Below, one piece after another: positions 1,152 through 9,125 of a DNA stretch of 39,749 nucleotides. The stretch lies in the IMG/VR virus record IMGVR_UViG_2541047827_000012, one strand, 5' to 3'. Made by a program: the position numbers and the translations under genes. The stretch is from a virus (taxonomy: Duplodnaviria; Heunggongvirae; Uroviricota; Caudoviricetes). Within the stretch, counting starts at the first letter, position 1. The number at the start of each line of letters is the position of its first letter. The notes under the pieces were generated by a model. That model worked only from the letters and a program-made list of their open reading frames with translations. It was not told where the DNA came from and ran no database searches.

Positions 1152-1858
1152 CTATAAGGCTCTCTTACCAGCCGCGCCCTAACAGGCGCACACGATCTGA
1201 CATTTGCATCCAACTTCGTTACTTACGGCCCGTAAACGGGCTGCCCGGATAGGGAATCGATAACTGCTCTCCCATTTTATCCTCTTCAAGCTGGTGCTTT
1301 ATGTAATCCTGTATCTTCGCCGTGTTCTTACCCACTGTATCGACGTAGTACCCTCTGCACCAGAACTCCCTGTTCCTGTATTTGAATTTCAAATCACCAA
1401 ACTGCTCGTAAAGCATCAGACTGCTTTTCCCTTTCAGATATCCCATAAACCCGGATACGCTCATTTTAGGCGGGATCTCCACAAGCATATGGATATGATC
1501 TGCACAGCATTCAGCTTCCAGAATCCGTACGCTTTTCCACTCACACAGCTTTCTCAAAATACTGCCTATTGCTCTACGCTTCTCTCTGTAGAACACCTGT
1601 CTTCGGTATTTTGGCGCAAAAACTATGTGATATTTACAGTTCCATCGGGTGTGCGCTAAGCTCTTTTCGTTCCCCATTGGGACCCCCTTTTGATTTCTTG
1701 TTTGACACTTGCAGTTGCCAGACCGCAAGGTGTTTTAACAAATCAAAAGGGGTTTTAATAACTGGCTCAAAGCTGAAAGCTTTCCGGAACCCCCAGCCTA
1801 GCTGGGGGTTTTCTGTGCACAAAAAACCCTCTGTAGTAACAGAGGGTTTTGTTCATTC
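1152..1858 (-). mobile_element. IS200 insertion sequence (IS200/IS605 family), ends approximate
   Basis: Contains the IS200 TnpA gene; upstream of tnpA are the two hairpins expected at the IS200 left end (CCCCCAGC/GCTGGGGG at 1790-1808 and A-run/CCCTCTGT-agta-ACAGAGGG/T-run at 1821-1850). About 707 bp fits IS200; exact ends not determined. Confidence 0.7.
1219..1677 (-). CDS. tnpA: IS200 transposase TnpA (Y1 HUH transposase), 152 aa
   Basis: Translation MGNEKSLAHTRWNCKYHIVFAPKYRR...HIHMLVEIPPK...GYYVDTVGKNTAKIQDYIKHQLEEDKMGEQLSIPYPGSPFTGRK matches IS200 TnpA as I recall it; the HxH and catalytic Tyr regions are present; start chosen at the internal ATG (1677) with SD AGGGGG, not the track start at 1728. 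Confidence 0.9.
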   Translation of the reverse strand: MGNEKSLAHTRWNCKYHIVFAPKYRRQVFYREKRRAIGSILRKLCEWKSVRILEAECCADHIHMLVEIPPKMSVSGFMGYLKGKSSLMLYEQFGDLKFKYRNREFWCRGYYVDTVGKNTAKIQDYIKHQLEEDKMGEQLSIPYPGSPFTGRK

Positions 1859-1999: not shown

Positions 2000-2482
2000 C
2001 TATCTGGTCAGGGTGTCGTACTGTTTTTCACAGACTCTTCCGGCTTCGGCTGCCCGGTCAGCATACTCTGCCAGTTGTCTGTTTCTCTCGAGAGATTTAC
2101 TGAGCACGTCGGCAAGCAAAACTCCGGTGTCTGCGGCTGACGTCCCAGCGCCGACAATGGCGTTATACTGCCTGAGCTGCTCACGGATGGCAACGAGCTG
2201 TTGCTGCAACCGGCCAGCGCGAGCGGCAGCATCAAGAGCATCATTGCGCGCCTGGTCGATCCTCTGCTGCGCTTCACGTTCATTGATCGCTTTCTCCTGT
2301 TCGTAGTGCTGACGAATTCTCTCATCTTCGGTTTTGCGGTCTTCTTTCGCCTGCGCATACCCGGCGTCGTACTGACGACTGCCGTGTACACTCCAGGCAA
2401 CAACTCCTGATATGACCAGAACAGCAAGCACCGCCATGATAATCAACTGTTTCCGGTATGCTTTTACGAATGCCCAGATCAT
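2000..2482 (-). CDS. Rz-like i-spanin (lysis)
   Basis: N-terminal TM segment then Ala/Gln/Arg-rich coiled coil; directly downstream of the endolysin and overlapping its stop; contains an embedded lipoprotein ORF in another frame. Confidence 0.6.
2008..2283 (-). CDS. Rz1-like o-spanin lipoprotein embedded in Rz (+1 frame)
   Basis: Frame inside Rz encodes [26 protein letters not shown] (signal plus lipobox LAGC) followed by a Pro/Ser-rich short tail; start could instead be the ATG at 2244. Confidence 0.5.
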   Translation of the reverse strand: MNVKRSRGSTRRAMMLLMLPLALAGCSNSSLPSVSSSGSITPLSALGRQPQTPEFCLPTCSVNLSRETDNWQSMLTGQPKPEESVKNSTTP

Positions 2483-3108
2483 ACCGCCAGCACCTTACTG
2501 GCATTGATGTATCGCGCGCGCCGGTCGTCGATGCCGTTCCGGCCACCATTGATAATCAGAGTTACACGTGCAATATCGCCGGTATACTTCATGCATCCTT
2601 TGCTGGCAAAGAACCACGCCGCGCTACGAGCCGCGTATTCGTCCTGCGCCAGCAGTTCAGGACTCTCCAGCAGGTCAACCTTAAGACCGTTTCCACAGTC
2701 ACGATAGTTATTCAAACCGGTAACCTGGATAAGCCCGCGCCCACGGTAGTTCCAGCCATCACCAGGGGCATTGTTCCCCATGCGTTTGCTGTACACCAGA
2801 TTGGCAATCGCTCTCTGGCGCTCAAGTGGCAATGGTGGTTCGCCTGCACGTCGCCCCAATGCGTTGGCCTGTCCCTGAGTGAGACGCCCAGCCCGAACAA
2901 AGTTAGCCAGTCCGCTGACGCTGTAGTTGAAATTCTCCTGCAACCGGGTGAAGCCTCCAGACTCATGCCCGACCTGAGCAATAAACATAGCCTGATCTTC
3001 TGGTTTGCTGATACCAAACTCTTTCATCGCAGAAGTTATATGCGAGAACCAGCGTGCGGCCAGTGCCTCGCTGATACCAGCAGCTCGCTGGAATTGTTTA
3101 ATCTCCAT
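2479..3108 (-). CDS. Endolysin, glycoside hydrolase family 19 (chitinase-like lysozyme)
   Basis: Motifs GHESGGF and [15 protein letters not shown] resemble GH19 catalytic/signature regions; sits between holin candidates and Rz. Confidence 0.75.
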
Positions 3109-3406
3109 GTTTAGACCTCGATACTTTGAAAATTTGAACGACGTTACCGCGCGTTTTAATAACCGCAGCTAGCATGACAGCGTTGATAATGACCTCAGAT
3201 AAATCCACAGCCATTGGCGTACGTAACCAGATTGCATAGGCGACACGAACAGGAATACTGGCCGCAGCAACAATCAGGAAATAAGCAAGCCATCCTCCCC
3301 ACCTTCGGTGTTGAGAGCCGTTACGCCGGAATGTGACAACGCGAATTGCTATGCCAGTGCAAATAACTGCATTGGTGATAAGCAAAAAAAACTCATGCGT
3401 TACCAT
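3098..3406 (-). CDS. Small membrane protein, putative holin or antiholin
   Basis: 102 aa with 2-3 hydrophobic helices, directly upstream of and overlapping the endolysin gene. Confidence 0.45.
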
Positions 3407-3806
3407 CGTCTTTTCTCCCCGGAATTAACTCGCGTGGATTATCGGAACGGTGATAGAGCCATATACCAATACGCACAGCGACAATTGCTGACACGAATGC
3501 GCCTGCAGAGAAAACAATCCCTTTTTCAAAAGAGTCCTGCGTGATGGTAGGGATCAGGCTGGCTATGCCGATAAGAATTGATGCTGCTGGTTTGTAAAAG
3601 AGAAGGCCGCAAAGAAAGCTGAGCATCGACAGGAGCACCCGGCGACGGATGGGGTACTCTACTGCAGAGGTAACAAAAATTACCGCTCCAGCCAAAGCAC
3701 CCAAAGCAACCTCAGGAGGAACTCCTGCTATCACCGCCGCCAGAGAACTCATGCTAAGCCACTGATTTAAAGTTTCACTGGTTAGTTGAGCTGACATGTT
3801 TTCCAC
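3393..3806 (-). CDS. Membrane protein, putative holin
   Basis: 137 aa with about 3 TM helices and a charged C-terminus; first gene of the lysis cassette. Confidence 0.5.
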   Translation of the reverse strand: MENMSAQLTSETLNQWLSMSSLAAVIAGVPPEVALGALAGAVIFVTSAVEYPIRRRVLLSMLSFLCGLLFYKPAASILIGIASLIPTITQDSFEKGIVFSAGAFVSAIVAVRIGIWLYHRSDNPRELIPGRKDDGNA

Positions 3807-3999
3807 CGTTTATATGCATAACAACCTCCTGAACAGTAAAGCATTACGCATAATAAACCATTTATGGTTTTTTGTTACTTTAACATCGTCAATTCCCTGT
3901 TTTTCATGCCGAGAATAAAGCTCACCTTTTACATGACTCTGAAGAAACAAACAGTGAAGAGCAGGTTGAATACCGCACCATTTAATGGCGCGGTAGCAG

Positions 4000-4296
4000 T
4001 CAAATAGAGAAATAAACACAAAAACAAAAAACAACAGGAACAGCAAAATCCAACAGACTTCCCACATCCCACACGCGTGGATCAAAACCTCCCCACCACG
4101 GCATGTTGATACGTTTCCCTTTCCCAAACTTTTCTATCCAGCGATATTCTGCCTGGGTGTGTTCACGCGCAATGAAGAACGTACAACCGGCTATCGCACC
4201 GTAAGCCCAGTTTCCGGTAAAAATACCAACCAGTACCTGAGCCACAAAAGCGCAAAGCGAGTGAAGAAATGGAGTGACATCAATGCTCTTAATCAT
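4000..4296 (-). CDS. Small membrane protein of unknown function, translationally coupled to the tailspike
   Basis: 98 aa with two hydrophobic segments; start overlaps the tailspike stop; AT-rich. Confidence 0.45.
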   Translation of the reverse strand: MIKSIDVTPFLHSLCAFVAQVLVGIFTGNWAYGAIAGCTFFIAREHTQAEYRWIEKFGKGKRINMPWWGGFDPRVWDVGSLLDFAVPVVFCFCVYFSI

Positions 4297-6482
4297 GAAA
4301 CTTCCCCATTGGTTGAAAATATGGCTCCTCCAACGCCAAGTGTATTTCGTGTTGTGCTCAACCTCAGAGGGCTGGAGTCAGAATTAGAATATCCTGTAGC
4401 AGAAATAAAAGATCCTCCACTAATAGTCAACTGCGGAACATCGGCTATATCTGAATAAGTTCTGTCAGCAACAGTATTATTTATAGCCACATATGATCCA
4501 AAAAAACTTCTTATTGTTTGGTTTTTAACTTTACTTCCTTCAATGGTTATCCTACTACCACAGTCGGCAATAAATCCTGAATCTGCATCCAGCGTTGCAT
4601 TCATAAAAGAAGCTTCAGATCTCTCTACATCAATCCATCTAATATCTTTTGTGGGATTTGCACCAAATACATGACAAATATTAGAGTTAAACCTTACACC
4701 ATCTTGGAGGTGCATTAATTTTTTTATATCTGTACCCCATAGCCTTGGAAAATTAACAGATGCTCCTGCATGGCAATCAAATCCCAGCTCAGCCCCTGAG
4801 ATATCTACAGCCTTTCCTGAAATAACAGCACCAGTGTCTGCATTAACGGCTGTTCCACAATTGCGCATATCATTACCAGCAACATCAACGCAACCCGCAC
4901 CATCAATACGCACACCAAGTGCACATCCATAAAAACCTTTTTCAATATTTGGTTCAAGGACTTTACCACTTGTTTCTGCATCACTTTCTTCAACGTCATG
5001 TCGTCTTGCATCAACATATGCTGTATGAATGCAGGTTAATCCACGATATGAGCAATGTATAGTTTTATGGTCGCGTATATTAACATTTGAACCATCTCTT
5101 ACATTCCATCCTATATAACAATAGCTTGCACTTGACCCCTGAAAATCTGCTTTAACATTATAAATACAATTAACTGACGCAACCGTACTCTCTGTGCACC
5201 GTTCAAACTTGCTTACAGGCATTGATGCCTTGACATTATTTACCAGTTGCAGGGAAGAGTATCTGCTATAAGAAAAATCACATACGTAATACCCTTCTGG
5301 CATATATGCAGCAACACTTTCCTCATCAGGAGCACATCCGGTATGATATGCACTAATTTTTGCACCAAAACTACCATGAATTCCAACGTAGAACTTTCGA
5401 GCACCTGAATACGGATAGAAATTAAGTTCAGCTTTTTGAGTTACAATAAATGCACAAACATCGCTATCATCTCTATTTTCTTCGATCTGAATAGCAAATA
5501 CAGGACTTTTTGCTGCATCGCAAATGTAAAATAAATACTTGTATTCGTAATACGTTCTAACGATTTTAGTAAACAAACGAGTGTCAGAGAAAACCACTGA
5601 GTCTTCTGATGTTATTTTAATCCAAGACAAATCAACACCTGAACTGAATTCAATTTGATAGTTGATAATATGCCCGGTCTTAATTCTTATTTCGCAGAAA
5701 GCATTACCACCATCCCACATAGGTCTCATTGACTGGGCTGCAATGATTGCATCTTTGAGTGTAGGGTAATCACCCCATTCGCCAACAGTAATAACAAAAG
5801 TATAATATGAGTTAAAAACAGCGGCATTTTTGCCTTTGGATATCAACTCCTTAATCATAAAAATATTATCTTCGTAATCACAAGGAGAAATTATATCCCT
5901 CATTTTGCTTTGAAATGTTCGTTGTCTTGCCCCGCTTCCTGACGGTATAAACCAACCAAAACCACCAACAACCCCGGCGATTGCAGCATCGACATAATTA
6001 CGCATTGAGCGATTATTTACAGCGTCCTGCTCAAATGATGGATCTGCAAGGTTAGAAATTTTGTTTTGCTTTGCATCGTAATATTTTGCAAGCAAAGATG
6101 GTTTCATCAATGCACGTCTGAACCACCCAAAACATCGCTGGATCAGCATCGTCAGGTAGTCAAATGCATCTTCATGAACTTCGGGGAAAAATTTTCCCTG
6201 ATTGCGAAGATCAGTCTCCTGCACCACATCAAGCACACGCTCTATCGTAATTCGCCAGCCAGCAGCAAGCGGCGACGGGAGAACCACTTCACCGCCACTA
6301 TAAGTGCCCGCTCCAGTTACCTTATAACCGGTATCCAGAACCAATTCTGTTACGTTCCCGTTCAGGTCAGACACCTGAACAACCAGGTCGGTTTTTTTGA
6401 AAATACGGAAGGTATACGGAAATGATGTCGTAACGCCGTTACCGGTGTATTCGTTGTGGTCAACTTCGGTTGAGACCGTCAT
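4293..6482 (-). CDS. Tailspike/tail fiber: conserved T7 gp17-like N-terminal domain plus divergent C-terminal receptor-binding domain
   Basis: 729 aa; N-terminus MTVSTEVDHNEYTGNGVTTSFPYTFRIFK...DTGYKVTG follows the tail-fiber N-terminal adaptor pattern; C-terminal 500 aa is AT-rich with Gly/Ser/Asn/Cys-rich repeats typical of beta-helix receptor-binding domains. Confidence 0.8.
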   Translation of the reverse strand: MTVSTEVDHNEYTGNGVTTSFPYTFRIFKKTDLVVQVSDLNGNVTELVLDTGYKVTGAGTYSGGEVVLPSPLAAGWRITIERVLDVVQETDLRNQGKFFPEVHEDAFDYLTMLIQRCFGWFRRALMKPSLLAKYYDAKQNKISNLADPSFEQDAVNNRSMRNYVDAAIAGVVGGFGWFIPSGSGARQRTFQSKMRDIISPCDYEDNIFMIKELISKGKNAAVFNSYYTFVITVGEWGDYPTLKDAIIAAQSMRPMWDGGNAFCEIRIKTGHIINYQIEFSSGVDLSWIKITSEDSVVFSDTRLFTKIVRTYYEYKYLFYICDAAKSPVFAIQIEENRDDSDVCAFIVTQKAELNFYPYSGARKFYVGIHGSFGAKISAYHTGCAPDEESVAAYMPEGYYVCDFSYSRYSSLQLVNNVKASMPVSKFERCTESTVASVNCIYNVKADFQGSSASYCYIGWNVRDGSNVNIRDHKTIHCSYRGLTCIHTAYVDARRHDVEESDAETSGKVLEPNIEKGFYGCALGVRIDGAGCVDVAGNDMRNCGTAVNADTGAVISGKAVDISGAELGFDCHAGASVNFPRLWGTDIKKLMHLQDGVRFNSNICHVFGANPTKDIRWIDVERSEASFMNATLDADSGFIADCGSRITIEGSKVKNQTIRSFFGSYVAINNTVADRTYSDIADVPQLTISGGSFISATGYSNSDSSPLRLSTTRNTLGVGGAIFSTNGEVS

Positions 6483-6586
6483 GTTAAATCTCCAGATAGT
6501 CGCAGCACCCGTTGCGCCGCATATCTGGTTATTCTATTACCTGTAAAACCACATATGGATAGAAAGACTGTAAATACGAATAGATA

Positions 6587-6601
6587 TTACCTTTCAGGTA
6601 A
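6587..6601. promoter_or_regulatory. Operator-like palindrome TTACCTTTCAGGTAA
   Basis: Perfect TTACC-N5-GGTAA inverted repeat about 40 bp upstream of the LexA box and antirepressor-paralog gene. Confidence 0.6.
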
Positions 6602-6638
6602 TTTGCAAAACGTGCTGGATAGCAAACAAATTATTTGA

Positions 6639-6658
6639 TACTGTATAAATATACAGTT
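6639..6658. promoter_or_regulatory. LexA (SOS) box
   Basis: TACTGTATAAATATACAGTT matches the CTGT-N8-ACAG LexA consensus; 20 bp upstream of ATG 6678 and overlaps a TATAAA -10-like element. Confidence 0.7.
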
Positions 6659-6677
6659 ATTGCATGGAGAAGATAAG

Positions 6678-6935
6678 ATGCAGCAGTATCACTATCCACT
6701 GGAAGACGGATTTACCGAAAGGATTCACACGCCGGGAGGCGTCAGGTCACTGGTGGAGGGATCGCACTTGATGAAATTACTCCGGGATCTCGATAAGGAT
6801 GGATTTAATGTCGATGGCCCACTTGCCGAACTGACTGCACTGATTAACTACGTCACCAGCTCACAGATGTCTATGCGGGATCTGCAAACACATCTCGACT
6901 ATTGTGCCGAACAATTACGAAAACAAACCAGATAA
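6678..6935 (+). CDS. Antirepressor C-terminal-domain paralog (lacks Bro-N domain), 85 aa
   Basis: SD GGAG before ATG 6678; sequence ...GVRSLVEGSHLMKLLRDLDKDGFNVDGPLAELTALINYV...RDLQTHLDY aligns at roughly 40-45 percent identity to the last 85 residues of the Bro-N protein at 7249..7935. Confidence 0.6.
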   Translation: MQQYHYPLEDGFTERIHTPGGVRSLVEGSHLMKLLRDLDKDGFNVDGPLAELTALINYVTSSQMSMRDLQTHLDYCAEQLRKQTR

Positions 6936-6966
6936 GGTTTGCAATTGCCAAGTGGAGTGCTTATAT

Positions 6967-6981
6967 TTACCTTTGCGGTAA
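6967..6981. promoter_or_regulatory. Operator-like palindrome TTACCTTTGCGGTAA
   Basis: Perfect TTACC-N5-GGTAA in the 312-bp non-coding stretch between the paralog and the antirepressor gene. Confidence 0.55.
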
Positions 6982-7248
6982 ATTTACATCGCACTCCTCT
7001 TGTGCCATAGTAATCGGGCACTGGCAAAATCCAGTGCCGGGATTGGCGTCCCGAGTTACTACAGAGGCACATATGCCGCATAAGCGGTTTTTTTTATGTG
7101 TAAAGCGCACCTATTCTATGGTGGGCTGTGTGGGGGCACCGAAAGGTGCGCCGGGTCCTTTGTAGCCGGTTACGCCAACCCTGCACAGTTCACCACCAAC
7201 CGATTGGCGTCGGTAGTGGTGATTAACCTAACTACAAAGGTGATCACT

Positions 7249-7935
7249 ATGACTGCTAACGTAACCCCATCTGTTTTTCATTTTGAATCAGAAGCAACCA
7301 TTCGAGCCATTGTTATTGATGGAAATCCTTGGTTTGTTGCCAAAGACGTTATTAAAGCTCTTCAACTGACAAACCCCACTATGTCAATAAAATCTCTTGA
7401 TGATGATGAAAGGGCTAAATTTAACTTAGGCCGTCAAGGCGAAACCAATATTATCAACGAGTCAGGCCTCTACACACTGATCCTCCGCTGCCGCGATGCA
7501 GTAACACCAGGCACTATCCCCTACCGCTTTCGCAAATGGGTTACAGGTGAGGTTCTTCCTCAGATCCGCCGCACCGGAAGTTACATTAAAAACTCGCTCC
7601 CGCAGGAAGAACGCATAAAGATGGTTGCCGACCAGGTTGCAAACGCCACAGCATCAGCAGTGATGCAGGCAATGAAGATAGAGAACAAAACCTACAGCGC
7701 CCCACTGAAGCCCGGCTACCGCAGCCTGATTCATTCGCCGTCTGGTGTTCTCGGCCTGACGGAGAACTCACTGCTGATGAATTTGCTGAACCAGTTACAG
7801 GAAGACGGGCATGACGTATCGGGCGCGGCGGCGGAGCTGACTACCATGTTCTGCTACATCGTCGGTGTGAGCAAATGCCTGCGTGATATCCAGACGCACG
7901 CGGAGTACATCAACGACAAGGCAGGGTTCTTCTGA
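7249..7935 (+). CDS. Antirepressor (Bro-N domain plus KilA-C-like C-terminal domain)
   Basis: SD AAAGGTGA before ATG 7249; Bro-N pattern FHFESEATIRAIVIDGNPWFVAKDVIKALQL...ESGLYTLILRCRDAVTPGTIPYRFRKWVTGEVLPQIRRTGSYI. Confidence 0.8.
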   Translation: MTANVTPSVFHFESEATIRAIVIDGNPWFVAKDVIKALQLTNPTMSIKSLDDDERAKFNLGRQGETNIINESGLYTLILRCRDAVTPGTIPYRFRKWVTGEVLPQIRRTGSYIKNSLPQEERIKMVADQVANATASAVMQAMKIENKTYSAPLKPGYRSLIHSPSGVLGLTENSLLMNLLNQLQEDGHDVSGAAAELTTMFCYIVGVSKCLRDIQTHAEYINDKAGFF

Positions 7936-8049: not shown

Positions 8050-8259
8050 ATGGGATTTTGGTTCGCTCGTACAAAAACGAGGGATAATGCACCCAGCCCT
8101 CAGGCAAAAAATGCAGAAGTTCCGGCGTCAGCGCAGGTTAACAAGCGTGGTGGTGTGTATATCTCATCACAGCAAATTTCTGAGCTTCCTGAGGTTAAGG
8201 AGATGCGTCGTCTCGCTGCTGCAATCGTTAAACAGGATCTTGCCACTGTAAGGAAATAG
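8050..8259 (+). CDS. Hypothetical 69-aa protein, first gene of accessory operon
   Basis: Strong SD GAGGAGGAG 6 nt before ATG 8050; stop overlaps start of the next gene. Confidence 0.5.
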   Translation: MGFWFARTKTRDNAPSPQAKNAEVPASAQVNKRGGVYISSQQISELPEVKEMRRLAAAIVKQDLATVRK

Positions 8260-9125
8260 TGTTGTTAGCTCTTCTAATTATCCCCATTCTGGTTAGTGGT
8301 TATATTATGATAACCGCTAACCAGTATCATTATTTCCGTTTATACCGACATGAAGGCCAGCTTCTTTATATGAAAGTAGCTGCATTAGGTACATATTGCC
8401 TTGTTGCTTCGGTAATAATTGCCGCATTTATAAAATATAAATATCCTGATTTTCACCTAGTTCACGATATGGTGGAAACTTTTAATGTAACGTCAAAACC
8501 AGAAACAGATAGAATTTACATGTGGCTGCTTCTTCTCTCAGCCACATCCATTTGCTTCTCTTTGTGTTATGTGTCTGTTGTGTGGGTGAAAGATTTTCTT
8601 CTTGGTTGTTTTTATAAACGTGATATTTATGAGCAAAAAACAGAGGCAATGAAGGCCAGAGTACTGCGAAAAACTTACTCGCAAGGTTCTTTAGACTTAC
8701 TATTGCTTGATGCTATTGAATCGGATCCTAAACGACCAATGCTGATTACTTTATCATCAAACAAAGTGTATGTTGGAATAATAAATGGTTCTGGTGAACC
8801 AACGGAAAATCAGGGTCCGCATCAGCACATATCTTTTGTTCCTTTAATGTCAGGATACAGGAACAAAGACAACTTATCTGTCACATTCACTAATGCTTAT
8901 CCAGGAGAAATACAGGTCAAGCGGACTGCAGCAATAAGAGGAATTAGCAGAAAGAAAGTGCCAGGACTTGAGATCATGGTGTCTATTGACGAAATAAGTT
9001 ATATATCATGGTTTGATTTTGAAGTATATAAAGCAACAAATAACAAAGTAGAATCCAGGGGGCACGTTATTCGTGTTACCAAAAATGGAAGAAATATATA
9101 TCAAAGAAATAGCAAAAAAGAATAG
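8259..9125 (+). CDS. Membrane-anchored protein of unknown function (N-terminal TM helices plus 160-aa soluble domain)
   Basis: GTG start at 8259 overlapping upstream stop (SD AGGA 8251-8254); about 3 hydrophobic helices in the first 110 aa; markedly AT-rich versus flanking phage DNA; followed by a terminator. Confidence 0.6.
   Translation: MLLALLIIPILVSGYIMITANQYHYFRLYRHEGQLLYMKVAALGTYCLVASVIIAAFIKYKYPDFHLVHDMVETFNVTSKPETDRIYMWLLLLSATSICFSLCYVSVVWVKDFLLGCFYKRDIYEQKTEAMKARVLRKTYSQGSLDLLLLDAIESDPKRPMLITLSSNKVYVGIINGSGEPTENQGPHQHISFVPLMSGYRNKDNLSVTFTNAYPGEIQVKRTAAIRGISRKKVPGLEIMVSIDEISYISWFDFEVYKATNNKVESRGHVIRVTKNGRNIYQRNSKKE

What the first reader, a model, noticed from the sequence alone, without database searches (positions are those of the whole stretch)
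4000..6482. Mosaic tailspike with a swapped AT-rich receptor-binding domain and a coupled small membrane protein
The first 150 residues look like the conserved particle-attachment domain while the remaining 580 are encoded by clearly AT-richer DNA, indicating domain exchange that would set host range. The 98-aa membrane protein translationally coupled to the tailspike is also AT-rich. In epsilon15-like phages small membrane proteins after the tailspike mediate O-antigen serotype conversion, so a similar role is a hypothesis only.
Basis: partly seen in the sequence, partly recalled or inferred. Interest (0 to 1): 0.5.

Follow-up and report, generated by a model that had tools for sequence, protein, structure and literature searches.

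The report
Mosaic phage tailspike plus conserved membrane gene
This is an ordinary modular tailspike of an epsilon15/phiV10-like E. coli prophage whose AT-rich receptor-binding part was swapped in from P22-like phages, followed by a widespread, unstudied small membrane-protein gene that marks the downstream edge of the swapped piece and is probably not an O-antigen conversion gene.

Summary
Window 4293-6482(-) is a 729-aa Uetakevirus tailspike. It has a conserved N-terminal anchor (aa 1-~180; GC 0.46, GC3 0.46) and an AT-rich body (aa ~185-729; GC 0.385, GC3 0.25) that models as a right-handed beta-helix.

The exchange is shown directly. Positions 5665 to ~4057 are 98% identical to the P22-like phage JEP4, while both flanks are Uetakevirus backbone.

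The 98-aa ORF (4000-4296) overlaps the tailspike stop by ATGA and models as three helices. It is not notably AT-rich (GC 0.451).

It belongs to an uncharacterised family (PHROG 1443, 'Ybl63') found in 35% of complete E. coli genomes. In 78 of 80 viral loci it lies directly after a tailspike or fibre gene, with at least eight different receptor-binding proteins. Sphingomonads carry chromosomal copies.

The downstream crossover of the exchange lies inside this gene (4220-4057).

The serotype-conversion idea is not supported. There is no homology to known conversion genes, no co-variation with the binding domain, and the gene is co-oriented with the late operon, whereas phiV10 oac and the E15-type Wzy-like gene sit on the opposite strand.

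Its function remains unknown; my best guess is a general envelope-acting or exclusion-type factor. The tailspike is ordinary; the small gene is moderately interesting.

The parts
4293..6482 (-). Tailspike gene (729 aa) of a Uetakevirus (epsilon15/phiV10-like) prophage
   Evidence: ORF. Full-length match to phrog_5662 'tail fiber protein'. The region is 99.4% identical to phage HEMP4 and at least 99% identical in 11 of 5426 complete E. coli genomes.
5949..6482 (-). N-terminal particle-binding anchor, aa 1-178 (backbone-type sequence)
   Evidence: Window 6700->5947 is 95.5% identical to Uetakevirus phiv142-3. About 20 tail PHROGs match only aa 1-~166/203. PDB Dpo31/Dpo36 tailspike residues 1-207 match aa 1-202, E 2e-31. 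GC is 0.464.
5666..5948 (-). Proximal part of the receptor-binding domain, aa 179-272: a diverged allele with no known DNA donor
   Evidence: No blastn match to JEP4 or phiv142-3. This DNA is found only in 11 of 5426 E. coli genomes and, within the full-region match, in HEMP4. In the alignment to the P22-type homologue P0122, the mismatches are concentrated in about aa 185-305. GC is 0.378.
4296..5665 (-). Distal receptor-binding domain, aa 273-729: beta-helix body recently shared with P22-like phages
4000..4296 (-). 98-aa three-helix membrane protein, family PHROG 1443 / 'Ybl63'; conserved motif FIAREHTQAEYRWI...GKR.NMPWWGGFD.RVW
   Evidence: phrog_1443 E 3e-55. 428 clusters at 90% identity, all named 'hypothetical', and 438 clusters at 50% identity, nearly all 58-146 aa. 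Alignments. AF2 pLDDT 90.8, three helices. No Pfam, NCBIfam, PADLOC, PDB or fold match.
4293..4307 (-). Translational-coupling junction: GGGGAAG (4301-4307), then ATGA (4293-4296), where the small-ORF start overlaps the tailspike stop
   Evidence: Read directly from the sequence.
4057..4220 (-). Crossover zone inside the small ORF: the DNA island shared by the P22-like donor type and the Uetakevirus backbone type
   Evidence: Three-way alignment. The window equals JEP4 and differs from Uetakevirus L009 upstream of about 4225. It equals both (1 mismatch each) from 4220 to 4057. It equals L009 and differs from JEP4 downstream of 4056. The same pattern is seen with phiv142-3 and Gally.
3971..3995 (-). 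11-bp stem hairpin 5 nt after the small-ORF stop, with no U-tract
   Evidence: RNA fold of 3930-4010(-): -21.4 kcal/mol, z -3.9 against shuffles. The simple terminator scan did not call it.
2000..3806 (-). Downstream lysis cassette (context only): holin-like 3393-3806, holin 3098-3406, GH19 endolysin 2479-3108, Rz-like spanin 2000-2482
   Evidence: Pfam PF16931, PF05449 and PF00182. PHROG lysis families.

Best explanation
SHOWN: genome context. The window is an almost complete epsilon15/phiV10-like (Uetakevirus) prophage.

SHOWN: the tailspike. Gene 4293-6482(-) is modular. A backbone-type anchor (aa 1-~180) attaches it to the virion. An AT-rich right-handed beta-helix (aa ~185-729) is the receptor-binding, probably polysaccharide-degrading, part that sets host range.

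SHOWN: the exchange.
- The beta-helix belongs to a family that circulates among phages with unrelated anchors.
- Its distal 1.6 kb was recently exchanged (98% nt identity) between P22-like and epsilon15-like phages.
- The exchange was homologous recombination. One crossover lies inside the binding domain at about 5665. The other lies inside the next gene, at 4220-4057.

SHOWN: the next gene. ORF 4000-4296(-) encodes a 98-aa three-helix membrane protein. It belongs to a large uncharacterised family that, in temperate proteobacterial phages, is the last gene of the receptor-binding module whatever the binding domain is. Its near-invariant core gives otherwise unrelated phage backbones a shared stretch of DNA, so it acts as the downstream homology arm for cassette exchange.

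INFERRED: here it is made together with the tailspike through the ATGA overlap.

INFERRED, low confidence (about 0.3): the protein acts on a conserved inner-membrane or envelope component, for example blocking genome entry of other phages (superinfection-exclusion type). It does not remodel a particular O-antigen.
For: Tailspike modules:
- Searches show the anchor.
- One search shows the same body fused to PF09008, PF18668, PF12571 and PF03906 N-termini.
- One search shows GC3 0.25 against 0.46.

Junctions:
-.

Small-gene family and linkage:
- define the family.
- In 78 of 80 IMG/VR loci it lies -4 to +80 nt after a receptor-binding gene on the same strand. These are six Uetakevirus tailspike lengths, two P22-type lengths and the lambdoid fibre protein.
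- It also follows J-like, tail or tailspike genes in Comamonas, Chelativorans, Halomonas and Desulfovibrio.
- It is present in 1918 of 5426 complete E. coli genomes.

Homology island:
- Other Uetakeviruses regain similarity at 4283/4284, 4254 or 4218.
- P22-like, lambdoid and P2-like loci match only about 4284-4031.

General, not O-antigen-specific, target:
- Chromosomal copies next to ligA/prmA in Sphingomonadaceae keep the motif.
- Distant copies in virulent Aeromonas phages lie away from fibre genes.
- An intact copy is retained in the decayed Qin prophage of BL21(DE3).
Against: - No function of the small protein was tested, and no homologue has a known function.
- Exclusion-type activity is only an analogy to receptor-binding-gene-adjacent genes such as T5 llp and phi80/N15 cor (my knowledge). 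There is no PADLOC hit.
- Coupling to a late gene fits poorly with a prophage-expressed exclusion function.
- Moron-like terminator and promoter signals upstream of the gene in Gally and phiv142-3 are only weak consensus matches, not above shuffle expectation.
- Membrane topology is unresolved. The conserved loop carries about 5.7 K+R in phage members, which points to the cytoplasm. The Arg-rich C-tails of sphingomonad members point the other way.
- The direction of the exchange (P22-like to Uetakevirus or the reverse) cannot be told.
- The receptor of the binding domain was not identified.
Confidence: 0.7

Rival explanations
1. First reader's idea. The small membrane protein converts the O-antigen serotype of the lysogen, for example by inhibiting the host O-antigen polymerase or changing chain length, so that the prophage's own tailspike no longer binds.
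For: - It occupies the same slot (tailspike to holin) that holds oac in phiV10 and an O-antigen-ligase-family (Wzy-like) gene in an E15-type phage.
- It is a membrane protein.
- A published review-type statement says some Lederberg- and Uetakeviruses carry O-antigen modification genes behind the receptor-binding gene (PMC10408124).
Against: - No similarity to any acyltransferase, Gtr, Wzy or Wzz family.
- tblastn listed no phiV10 or epsilon15-type record; the only Salmonella phage shown is an unrelated 156-kb phage with a partial match, and 10 of the 70 records were not listed.
- The known conversion genes in that slot are on the opposite strand, whereas this one is ATGA-coupled to the late gene.
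- The same protein (60-90% identical) follows at least eight different binding domains and lambdoid, P2-like and J-like fibres.
- Chromosomal homologues exist in Sphingomonadaceae, which lack LPS O-antigen (my knowledge).
Confidence: 0.1
2. The small protein is part of the lysis system (a holin, antiholin or pinholin-like protein), because it is a small three-helix membrane protein just upstream of two holin-type genes.
For: - Its size and three helices resemble class I holins (my knowledge of holin classes).
- It lies directly upstream of the holin, holin, endolysin, spanin cassette in this phage and in phiv142-3.
- In Comamonas it is followed by several small genes after the J-like gene.
Against: - No holin Pfam or PHROG match, although both neighbouring holins match.
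- In P22-like phages it lies next to the integrase, and in lambdoid prophages next to Pin invertase, far from lysis genes.
- The long, strongly conserved polar loop (aa 44-80) is unlike the short loops of holins.
- Cellular copies lie beside ligA/prmA.
Confidence: 0.1
3. The small protein is an accessory factor for the receptor-binding protein itself (assembly, folding or membrane-proximal maturation of tailspikes and fibres), like the chaperone genes that usually follow fibre genes.
For: - It is immediately downstream and co-oriented, and often overlapping or within 30 nt of receptor-binding genes in four tail types.
- Translational coupling is present here.
Against: - It is an integral membrane protein, whereas tailspikes fold and assemble in the cytoplasm (my knowledge of P22 tailspike).
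- Its sequence does not co-vary with the binding domain.
- Cellular copies exist without any phage genes nearby.
- Copies in Aeromonas phages are not next to fibre genes.
Confidence: 0.1
4. The GC difference along the tailspike is only a by-product of amino-acid composition or local mutation bias, not of exchange.
For: - GC already declines from about aa 100, before the homology boundary at aa 178.
Against: - The difference is strongest at third codon positions (0.46 against 0.25).
- Explicit donor-type sequences and junctions are seen.
- The same body is fused to unrelated anchors.
Confidence: 0.02

Closest known systems
Tailspikes of Uetakevirus phages (epsilon15 gp20, phiV10 gp25) and the published anchor/binding-domain modularity of Uetake- and Lederbergvirus tailspikes (PMC10408124)
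   Same: - Same N-terminal anchor: about 91% nt identity to phiV10 over the first approximately 240 nt, and 95-96% to ZX5 and phiv142-3 over the anchor.
- Same genome position.
- Beta-helix binding domain exchanged with P22-like phages, as that paper describes in general terms.
   Different: - This binding domain has no Pfam family and its receptor is unknown.
- The tailspike itself has three segments with different histories.
- The downstream breakpoint lies in the next gene rather than at the gene end.
Tailspike of Lederbergvirus JEP4 / E. coli 174750 'bifunctional tail protein' (P22-type head-binding anchor)
   Same: - From about aa 308 to 729 the protein is identical apart from one residue, and the DNA is 98% identical.
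- The first approximately 80 codons of the following small gene are also shared.
   Different: - Unrelated N-terminal anchor (PF09008).
- Diverged proximal binding-domain segment.
- Different last approximately 16 codons of the small gene and different downstream DNA (integrase side rather than lysis genes).
Serotype-conversion genes in the same slot: phiV10 oac (O-acetyltransferase) and the Wzy-like gene of E15-type phages
   Same: - Located between the tailspike gene and the holin genes.
- Membrane proteins.
   Different: - Those are 338-392 aa enzymes on the opposite strand.
- This one is a 98-aa protein with no detectable similarity, on the same strand and coupled to the tailspike gene.
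Receptor-binding-gene-adjacent exclusion genes (T5 llp, phi80/N15 cor) and inner-membrane exclusion proteins (P22 SieA, T4 Imm, HK97 gp15). This comparison rests on my own knowledge; SieA is also described in PMC10883804 (listed, not read).
   Same: - Small accessory envelope protein encoded beside the receptor-binding genes.
- Widely spread among prophages and retained in a decayed prophage.
   Different: - No sequence or fold similarity and no PADLOC hit.
- Llp and Cor are outer-membrane lipoproteins tied to one receptor.
- This family is far more conserved across hosts and has cellular members.

Membership tests
Uetakevirus (epsilon15/phiV10-type) tailspike | Conserved N-terminal anchor homologous to epsilon15 gp20 / phiV10 gp25 | tested here: met
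   - blastn shows 91% identity to phiV10 over the first approximately 240 nt, and 95-96% to ZX5 and phiv142-3 over the anchor.
- PHROG tail families match aa 1-166/203.
- A solved tailspike N-domain matches at E 2e-31.
Uetakevirus (epsilon15/phiV10-type) tailspike | Position in the genome between the antirepressor region and the lysis cassette | tested here: met
   The gene order is the same as in phiv142-3 and phiV10.
Uetakevirus (epsilon15/phiV10-type) tailspike | C-terminal right-handed beta-helix receptor-binding domain | tested here: met
Uetakevirus (epsilon15/phiV10-type) tailspike | Binding and cleavage (or deacetylation) of a host surface polysaccharide | not testable with these tools
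   Needs purified protein. The receptor and host serogroup were not determined. JEP4, which carries the same domain, lysed 32 of 67 AMR E. coli strains (PMC8425383).
Phage O-antigen serotype-conversion genes (Oac, GtrABC, Wzy-beta / polymerase inhibitors) | Homology to an O-antigen-modifying enzyme or known inhibitor | tested here: not met
   - No Pfam or NCBIfam hit for the protein or for 40 family members.
- No match listed in phiV10 or E15-type phages; 10 of 70 records were not listed.
Phage O-antigen serotype-conversion genes (Oac, GtrABC, Wzy-beta / polymerase inhibitors) | Encoded next to the tailspike gene | tested here: met
   The gene occupies the same slot as phiV10 oac and the E15-type Wzy-like gene.
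Phage O-antigen serotype-conversion genes (Oac, GtrABC, Wzy-beta / polymerase inhibitors) | Transcribed independently of the late operon (expressed from the prophage) | tested here: inconclusive
   - Here the gene is on the same strand and ATGA-coupled.
- The known examples are on the opposite strand.
- Weak terminator and promoter-like sites lie upstream of the homologues in Gally and phiv142-3.
- No expression data were found.
Phage O-antigen serotype-conversion genes (Oac, GtrABC, Wzy-beta / polymerase inhibitors) | Specificity matched to the O-antigen recognised by the phage's own binding domain | tested here: not met
   - The same family follows at least eight binding-domain types and fibre types.
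- The crossover lies inside the gene.
- Homologues occur in Sphingomonadaceae chromosomes.
Phage O-antigen serotype-conversion genes (Oac, GtrABC, Wzy-beta / polymerase inhibitors) | Altered LPS or loss of adsorption in lysogens | not testable with these tools
   This is an experiment only.
PHROG 1443 / 'Ybl63' small membrane protein family (uncharacterised) | Full-length profile match and the motif AREHTQAEYRWI...MPWWGGFD.RVW between hydrophobic helices | tested here: met
   phrog_1443 E 3e-55 over aa 5-98. Invariant columns are listed. UniRef name 'Ybl63'.
Holins | Match to a holin family; encoded with the endolysin | tested here: not met
   - No holin Pfam or PHROG hit, although both neighbouring holins hit.
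- The gene is adjacent to lysis genes only in Uetakeviruses, not in P22-like or lambdoid contexts.
Known superinfection-exclusion / defence proteins | Homology to a described exclusion or defence protein | tested here: not met
   No PADLOC hit. No significant BFVD or PDB fold match.
Known superinfection-exclusion / defence proteins | Reduces plating or DNA entry of phages when expressed | not testable with these tools
   This is an experiment only.

The most novel reading that the evidence does not exclude
The 98-aa protein is a member of a so far unrecognised, very widespread class of inner-membrane proteins. Members occur in about a third of complete E. coli genomes, in alpha-, beta-, gamma- and deltaproteobacterial prophages, and as cellular copies in sphingomonads. 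Phages of all tail types would carry it as the terminal gene of their receptor-binding module. In this reading it acts on a universally conserved envelope component, for example to block genome entry or to alter export of lipid-linked glycans. Its invariant core would at the same time serve as the shared DNA handle that lets unrelated phages trade receptor-binding cassettes.
Probability: 0.3. Interest if true: 0.6.

Novelty: new member of a known kind. Interest (0 to 1): 0.35.

Why it matters
The tailspike adds one more documented case to the known picture of exchangeable receptor-binding domains. The junctions are mapped to the base, and the binding-domain family has no Pfam entry. That is useful for host-range prediction and for engineering tailspikes or tailocins.

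The small gene is more interesting. It is one of the commonest unannotated prophage genes in E. coli, it is tightly linked to receptor-binding genes, and it is highly conserved. It marks a recurrent recombination boundary.

If it proves to be an exclusion or envelope-modifying factor, it would affect phage-therapy host-range predictions in about a third of E. coli strains. If it does nothing measurable, it still explains where binding-domain cassettes break.

Tried and rejected
Searches on the small protein that gave nothing:
- Pfam, NCBIfam and PADLOC scans of the protein and of 40 distant relatives.
- PDB sequence profile search.
- The afdb50 fold library was not available.
- An exhaustive HMM search found only stand-alone small proteins and no fusion to an informative domain.

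Literature:
- No paper mentions phrog_1443, FIG00639861, WP_000355603 or Ybl63 in a relevant sense.
- The phiv142-3 study deleted orf6 (the tailspike) but never tested orf5, the homologue. orf5 is not among its serum-induced genes.
- The JEP4 paper gives host range but no receptor.

Host O-serogroup of the 11 E. coli carriers:
- It could not be obtained. Strain names gave no serotype in the literature.
- The search tool cannot be aimed at one genome's O-antigen locus.

Other:
- An alignment-based genome scan with the distant alignment failed for lack of a conserved word, so the closer alignment was used.
- The greedy ORF maps in high-GC genomes were unreliable. They were replaced by targeted family scans.

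Rejected ideas:
- The small ORF as a chance ORF. Hundreds of conserved homologues rule this out.
- The small ORF as a holin.
- GC shift as a composition artefact.
Full report
1. What is there

The window is an almost complete Uetakevirus (epsilon15/phiV10-like) prophage.
- The region 3800-6600 is 99.4% identical to Escherichia phage HEMP4, and at least 99% identical in 11 of 5426 complete E. coli genomes.
- An integrase, virion genes, antirepressor genes and a lysis cassette are in the expected places.
- On the - strand, 4293-6482 encodes a 729-aa protein and 4000-4296 a 98-aa protein.
- The two ORFs overlap by ATGA (start 4296-4294, stop 4295-4293). A GGGGAAG site lies at 4301-4307.
- Downstream lie a 193-nt spacer with a strong hairpin (3971-3995), two holin-type genes, a GH19 endolysin and an Rz-like spanin.

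2. Check of the composition claim

| Segment | GC | GC3 |
|---|---|---|
| Whole window | 0.488 | not computed |
| Tailspike aa 1-150 | 0.462 | 0.46 |
| Tailspike aa 151-729 | 0.385 | 0.249 |
| Small ORF | 0.451 | 0.41 |

- The 1737-nt tailspike body lies at the 0.9th percentile of same-size windows. The AT-rich body is real and is most marked at silent positions.
- The small ORF sits at the 18th percentile, like its holin neighbours. It is not AT-rich in any notable way.
- GC begins to fall near aa 100. The sequence-homology boundary of the anchor is at aa 178-184, not aa 150.

3. The tailspike

Anchor:
- About twenty PHROG tail families match only aa 1-~166/203. One family (phrog_5662) matches over the full length.
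- The only solved relative (Dpo31/Dpo36 tailspike) aligns to aa 1-202, E 2e-31.

Body:
- The rest has no Pfam family.
- It has 24 full-length relatives (37-100% identity). These are fused to P22-type head-binding domains (PF09008), PF18668, PF12571 and PF03906 N-termini. Some carry an extra SGNH esterase. The Pfam names are from my knowledge, supported by the source names in that table.
- With that alignment, AlphaFold2 gives a confident model (pLDDT 91.6, pTM 0.87) made of short strands.

Enzymatic activity and the receptor are not shown.

4. The mosaic, mapped

| Window segment | Closest relative | Identity |
|---|---|---|
| 6700->5947 (upstream DNA plus anchor) | Uetakevirus phiv142-3 | 95.5% |
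| 5946->5666 (aa 179-272) | no DNA match in JEP4 or phiv142-3; only 11 of 5426 E. coli genomes and HEMP4 (whole-region match) | not applicable |
| 5665->4037 | P22-like phage JEP4 (Lederbergvirus) and P22-type prophages | 97.9% |
| 4283->3700 | phiv142-3 | 88.4% |

- In the protein alignment to the P22-type homologue P0122, the mismatches lie in about aa 185-305. From about aa 308 to 729 the two are identical apart from one residue.
- A three-way alignment of the small-gene region is a textbook recombinant pattern. The window equals JEP4 and differs from Uetakevirus L009 upstream of about 4225. It equals both from 4220 to 4057, with one mismatch each. It equals L009 and differs from JEP4 downstream of 4056.
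- So one crossover lies inside the binding domain near 5665, and the other inside the small gene.
- The older segment 5946-5666 shows that an allele of the same binding-domain family was already present or was acquired separately.
- The direction of transfer cannot be told.
- That such tailspikes are modular and exchanged between Uetake- and Lederbergviruses is published (PMC10408124). This part of the finding is a well-documented instance of a known phenomenon.

5. The small gene

Family:
- It matches phrog_1443 (unknown function) at E 3e-55.
- It has 428 clusters of relatives at 90% identity, all named 'hypothetical'. One UniRef entry calls it Ybl63.
- An exhaustive profile search finds 438 clusters at 50% identity. 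Nearly all are 58-146 aa and none carries a further domain.
- The family shares H12, R44-E45, Q48-A49-E50 and W76. In closer members it shares the block FIAREHTQAEYRWI..FG.GKR.NMPWWGGFD.RVW.

Structure:
- AlphaFold2 gives three helices (8-27, 30-57, 78-97) at pLDDT 90.8.
- No Pfam, NCBIfam, PADLOC, PDB-sequence, BFVD or PDB-fold relative was found.
- Topology is unresolved. The conserved loop is rich in K/R in phage members. Sphingomonad members have a basic residue in the helix 1-2 turn and Arg-rich C-tails, which would put the loop in the periplasm.

6. Where the family occurs

In viral contigs (80 IMG/VR loci), the gene lies -4 to +80 nt downstream of a receptor-binding gene, on the same strand, in 78 loci:
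- 51 after a 227-346-aa fibre protein of lambdoid prophages, which is itself preceded by a lambda Stf-like fibre.
- 16 after Uetakevirus tailspikes of six different lengths.
- 9 after P22-type tailspikes of two lengths.
- 1 after a P2-like tail-collar fibre.

In other bacteria and genomes:
- In Comamonas it follows a 2520-aa J-like protein.
- In Chelativorans, Halomonas, Desulfovibrio, Leclercia and Pantoea the nearest large upstream gene is a tail, fibre or tailspike gene.
- It is present in 1918 of 5426 complete E. coli genomes, with a median of 2 and up to 7 copies.
- An intact copy sits in the decayed Qin prophage of BL21(DE3), beside pinQ.

The link to receptor-binding genes is not universal:
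- In Sphingomonadaceae the gene is chromosomal. ligA lies upstream in three genomes and prmA downstream in one. Another genome shows a different housekeeping context. The motif is fully kept.
- Distant copies in virulent or jumbo Aeromonas phages lie among early-type or replication genes.

7. Consequence for recombination

- Other Uetakeviruses with different binding domains regain similarity to the window at 4283/4284 (three loci), 4254 or 4218.
- P22-like, lambdoid and P2-like loci share only about 4284-4031 with the window.
- The small gene is therefore an island of shared DNA among otherwise unrelated backbones. Its roughly 130-nt core (about 4207-4079) is identical between the window and phiv142-3, and JEP4 and Gally differ there by only 1-3 bases. 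In this phage it contains the downstream crossover.
- This is the best-supported role of the gene in the mosaic. It is the 3' homology arm of the exchangeable cassette.

8. What the small protein does

This is not shown by anything here.

The serotype-conversion idea is weak:
- There is no homology to conversion enzymes.
- There is no co-variation with the binding domain.
- Relatives exist in bacteria without LPS O-antigen (my knowledge).
- In phiV10 (oac) and an E15-type phage (O-antigen-ligase-family gene), the conversion genes in the same slot are large enzymes on the opposite strand. This gene is coupled to the late gene.

A holin role is unlikely, because the gene is far from lysis genes in P22-like and lambdoid phages and matches no holin family. 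A fibre-chaperone role fits the position but not an integral membrane protein with cellular homologues.

I commit, at about 0.3, to a general envelope-acting accessory factor of the exclusion type that targets a conserved inner-membrane component. The reasons are:
- the extreme conservation across hosts;
- the position typical of accessory genes beside receptor-binding genes;
- retention in a decayed prophage;
- presence in early regions of virulent phages.

Weak terminator-plus-promoter signals upstream of the homologues in Gally and phiv142-3 would allow prophage expression there. They are only consensus matches, not above shuffle expectation. No expression or phenotype data exist. The phiv142-3 study never tested orf5.

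9. Verdict

- The tailspike is an ordinary, already sequenced member of a known modular family, now with mapped junctions and a confirmed beta-helix fold.
- The small gene is a real, very common, uncharacterised family. Its linkage to receptor-binding genes and its role as a recombination boundary are worth a modest follow-up.
- The specific hypothesis of O-antigen conversion is not supported.

Noticed in passing
window 8259-9125 (+): 288-aa ORF in a second AT-rich stretch (GC 0.36-0.39) with a hydrophobic N-terminus. It matches phrog_3630 (unknown function) and has no PADLOC hit. It sits between the antirepressor genes and the virion genes on the opposite strand, which makes it a candidate accessory (moron) gene.
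   Followed up: partly
window 6660-6935 (+) and 7096-7935 (+): The 91-aa ORF repeats the C-terminal domain (phrog_450 / phrog_15539) of the 279-aa Ant-type antirepressor just downstream. This is a partial duplication of the antirepressor C-terminus.
   Followed up: no
window 1219-1728 (-): Transposase-like ORF (phrog_2577/2393) in a lower-GC stretch (about 1350-2100, GC 0.42-0.46) between the spanin gene and a DNA methyltransferase gene (1-516). It is possibly an insertion-sequence remnant inside the prophage.
   Followed up: no
window 3971-3995 (-): Perfect 11-bp stem hairpin 5 nt after the small-ORF stop. It is conserved in phiv142-3 and L009 but has no U-tract, so it may be an RNA-stabilising or processing element rather than an intrinsic terminator.
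   Followed up: partly
L155 (phiV10) 968-1984 and L154 (Salmonella phage VB_ST_E15) 414-1592: In both reference-type Uetakeviruses the slot between the tailspike and the holin holds a large conversion-type gene (oac; O-antigen ligase family) on the strand opposite to the tailspike. In the window the slot holds the small co-oriented gene.
   Followed up: yes
L151 (E. coli BL21-Gold(DE3), Qin prophage) 4961-5254: An intact copy of the small gene (WP_000355603.1) lies next to pinQ. The flanking fibre-assembly and Stf-like genes are pseudogenes and an IS3 has inserted nearby. This suggests the small gene may be kept by selection, or may sit in or beside a Pin-invertible fibre segment.
   Followed up: no
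L141, L142, L148, L125 (Sphingomonadaceae genomes), match at about 5900-6300: Chromosomal homologues with the full motif lie in housekeeping contexts: ligA upstream, prmA downstream, or a methyltransferase, a beta-barrel OMP and a SIS-CBS protein nearby. This is a cellular branch of a family otherwise seen in phages.
   Followed up: partly
L003 (phage Gally) 4393-4459 and L002 (phiv142-3) 2443-2495: A terminator-like hairpin right after the tailspike stop, followed by a promoter-like site upstream of the small gene. This is a moron-like layout, in contrast to the ATGA overlap in the window and in JEP4. The matches are weak and not above shuffle expectation.
   Followed up: partly
L001 (phage JEP4) tailspike 5256-7406: JEP4 carries the same distal binding domain and was reported to lyse 32 of 67 antimicrobial-resistant E. 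coli strains, including 74% of phylogroup A (PMC8425383). That is unusually broad for an O-antigen-specific tailspike, so the receptor may be a more widely shared glycan.
   Followed up: no
L152 (Aeromonas phage PS1) 5917-6180; L153 (Aeromonas phage 62AhydR11PP) 3493-3780: Distant family members in a 237-kb jumbo phage and a 44-kb phage lie next to a helicase/terminase-like gene, or within a run of small early-type genes. They are not next to fibre genes.
   Followed up: partly
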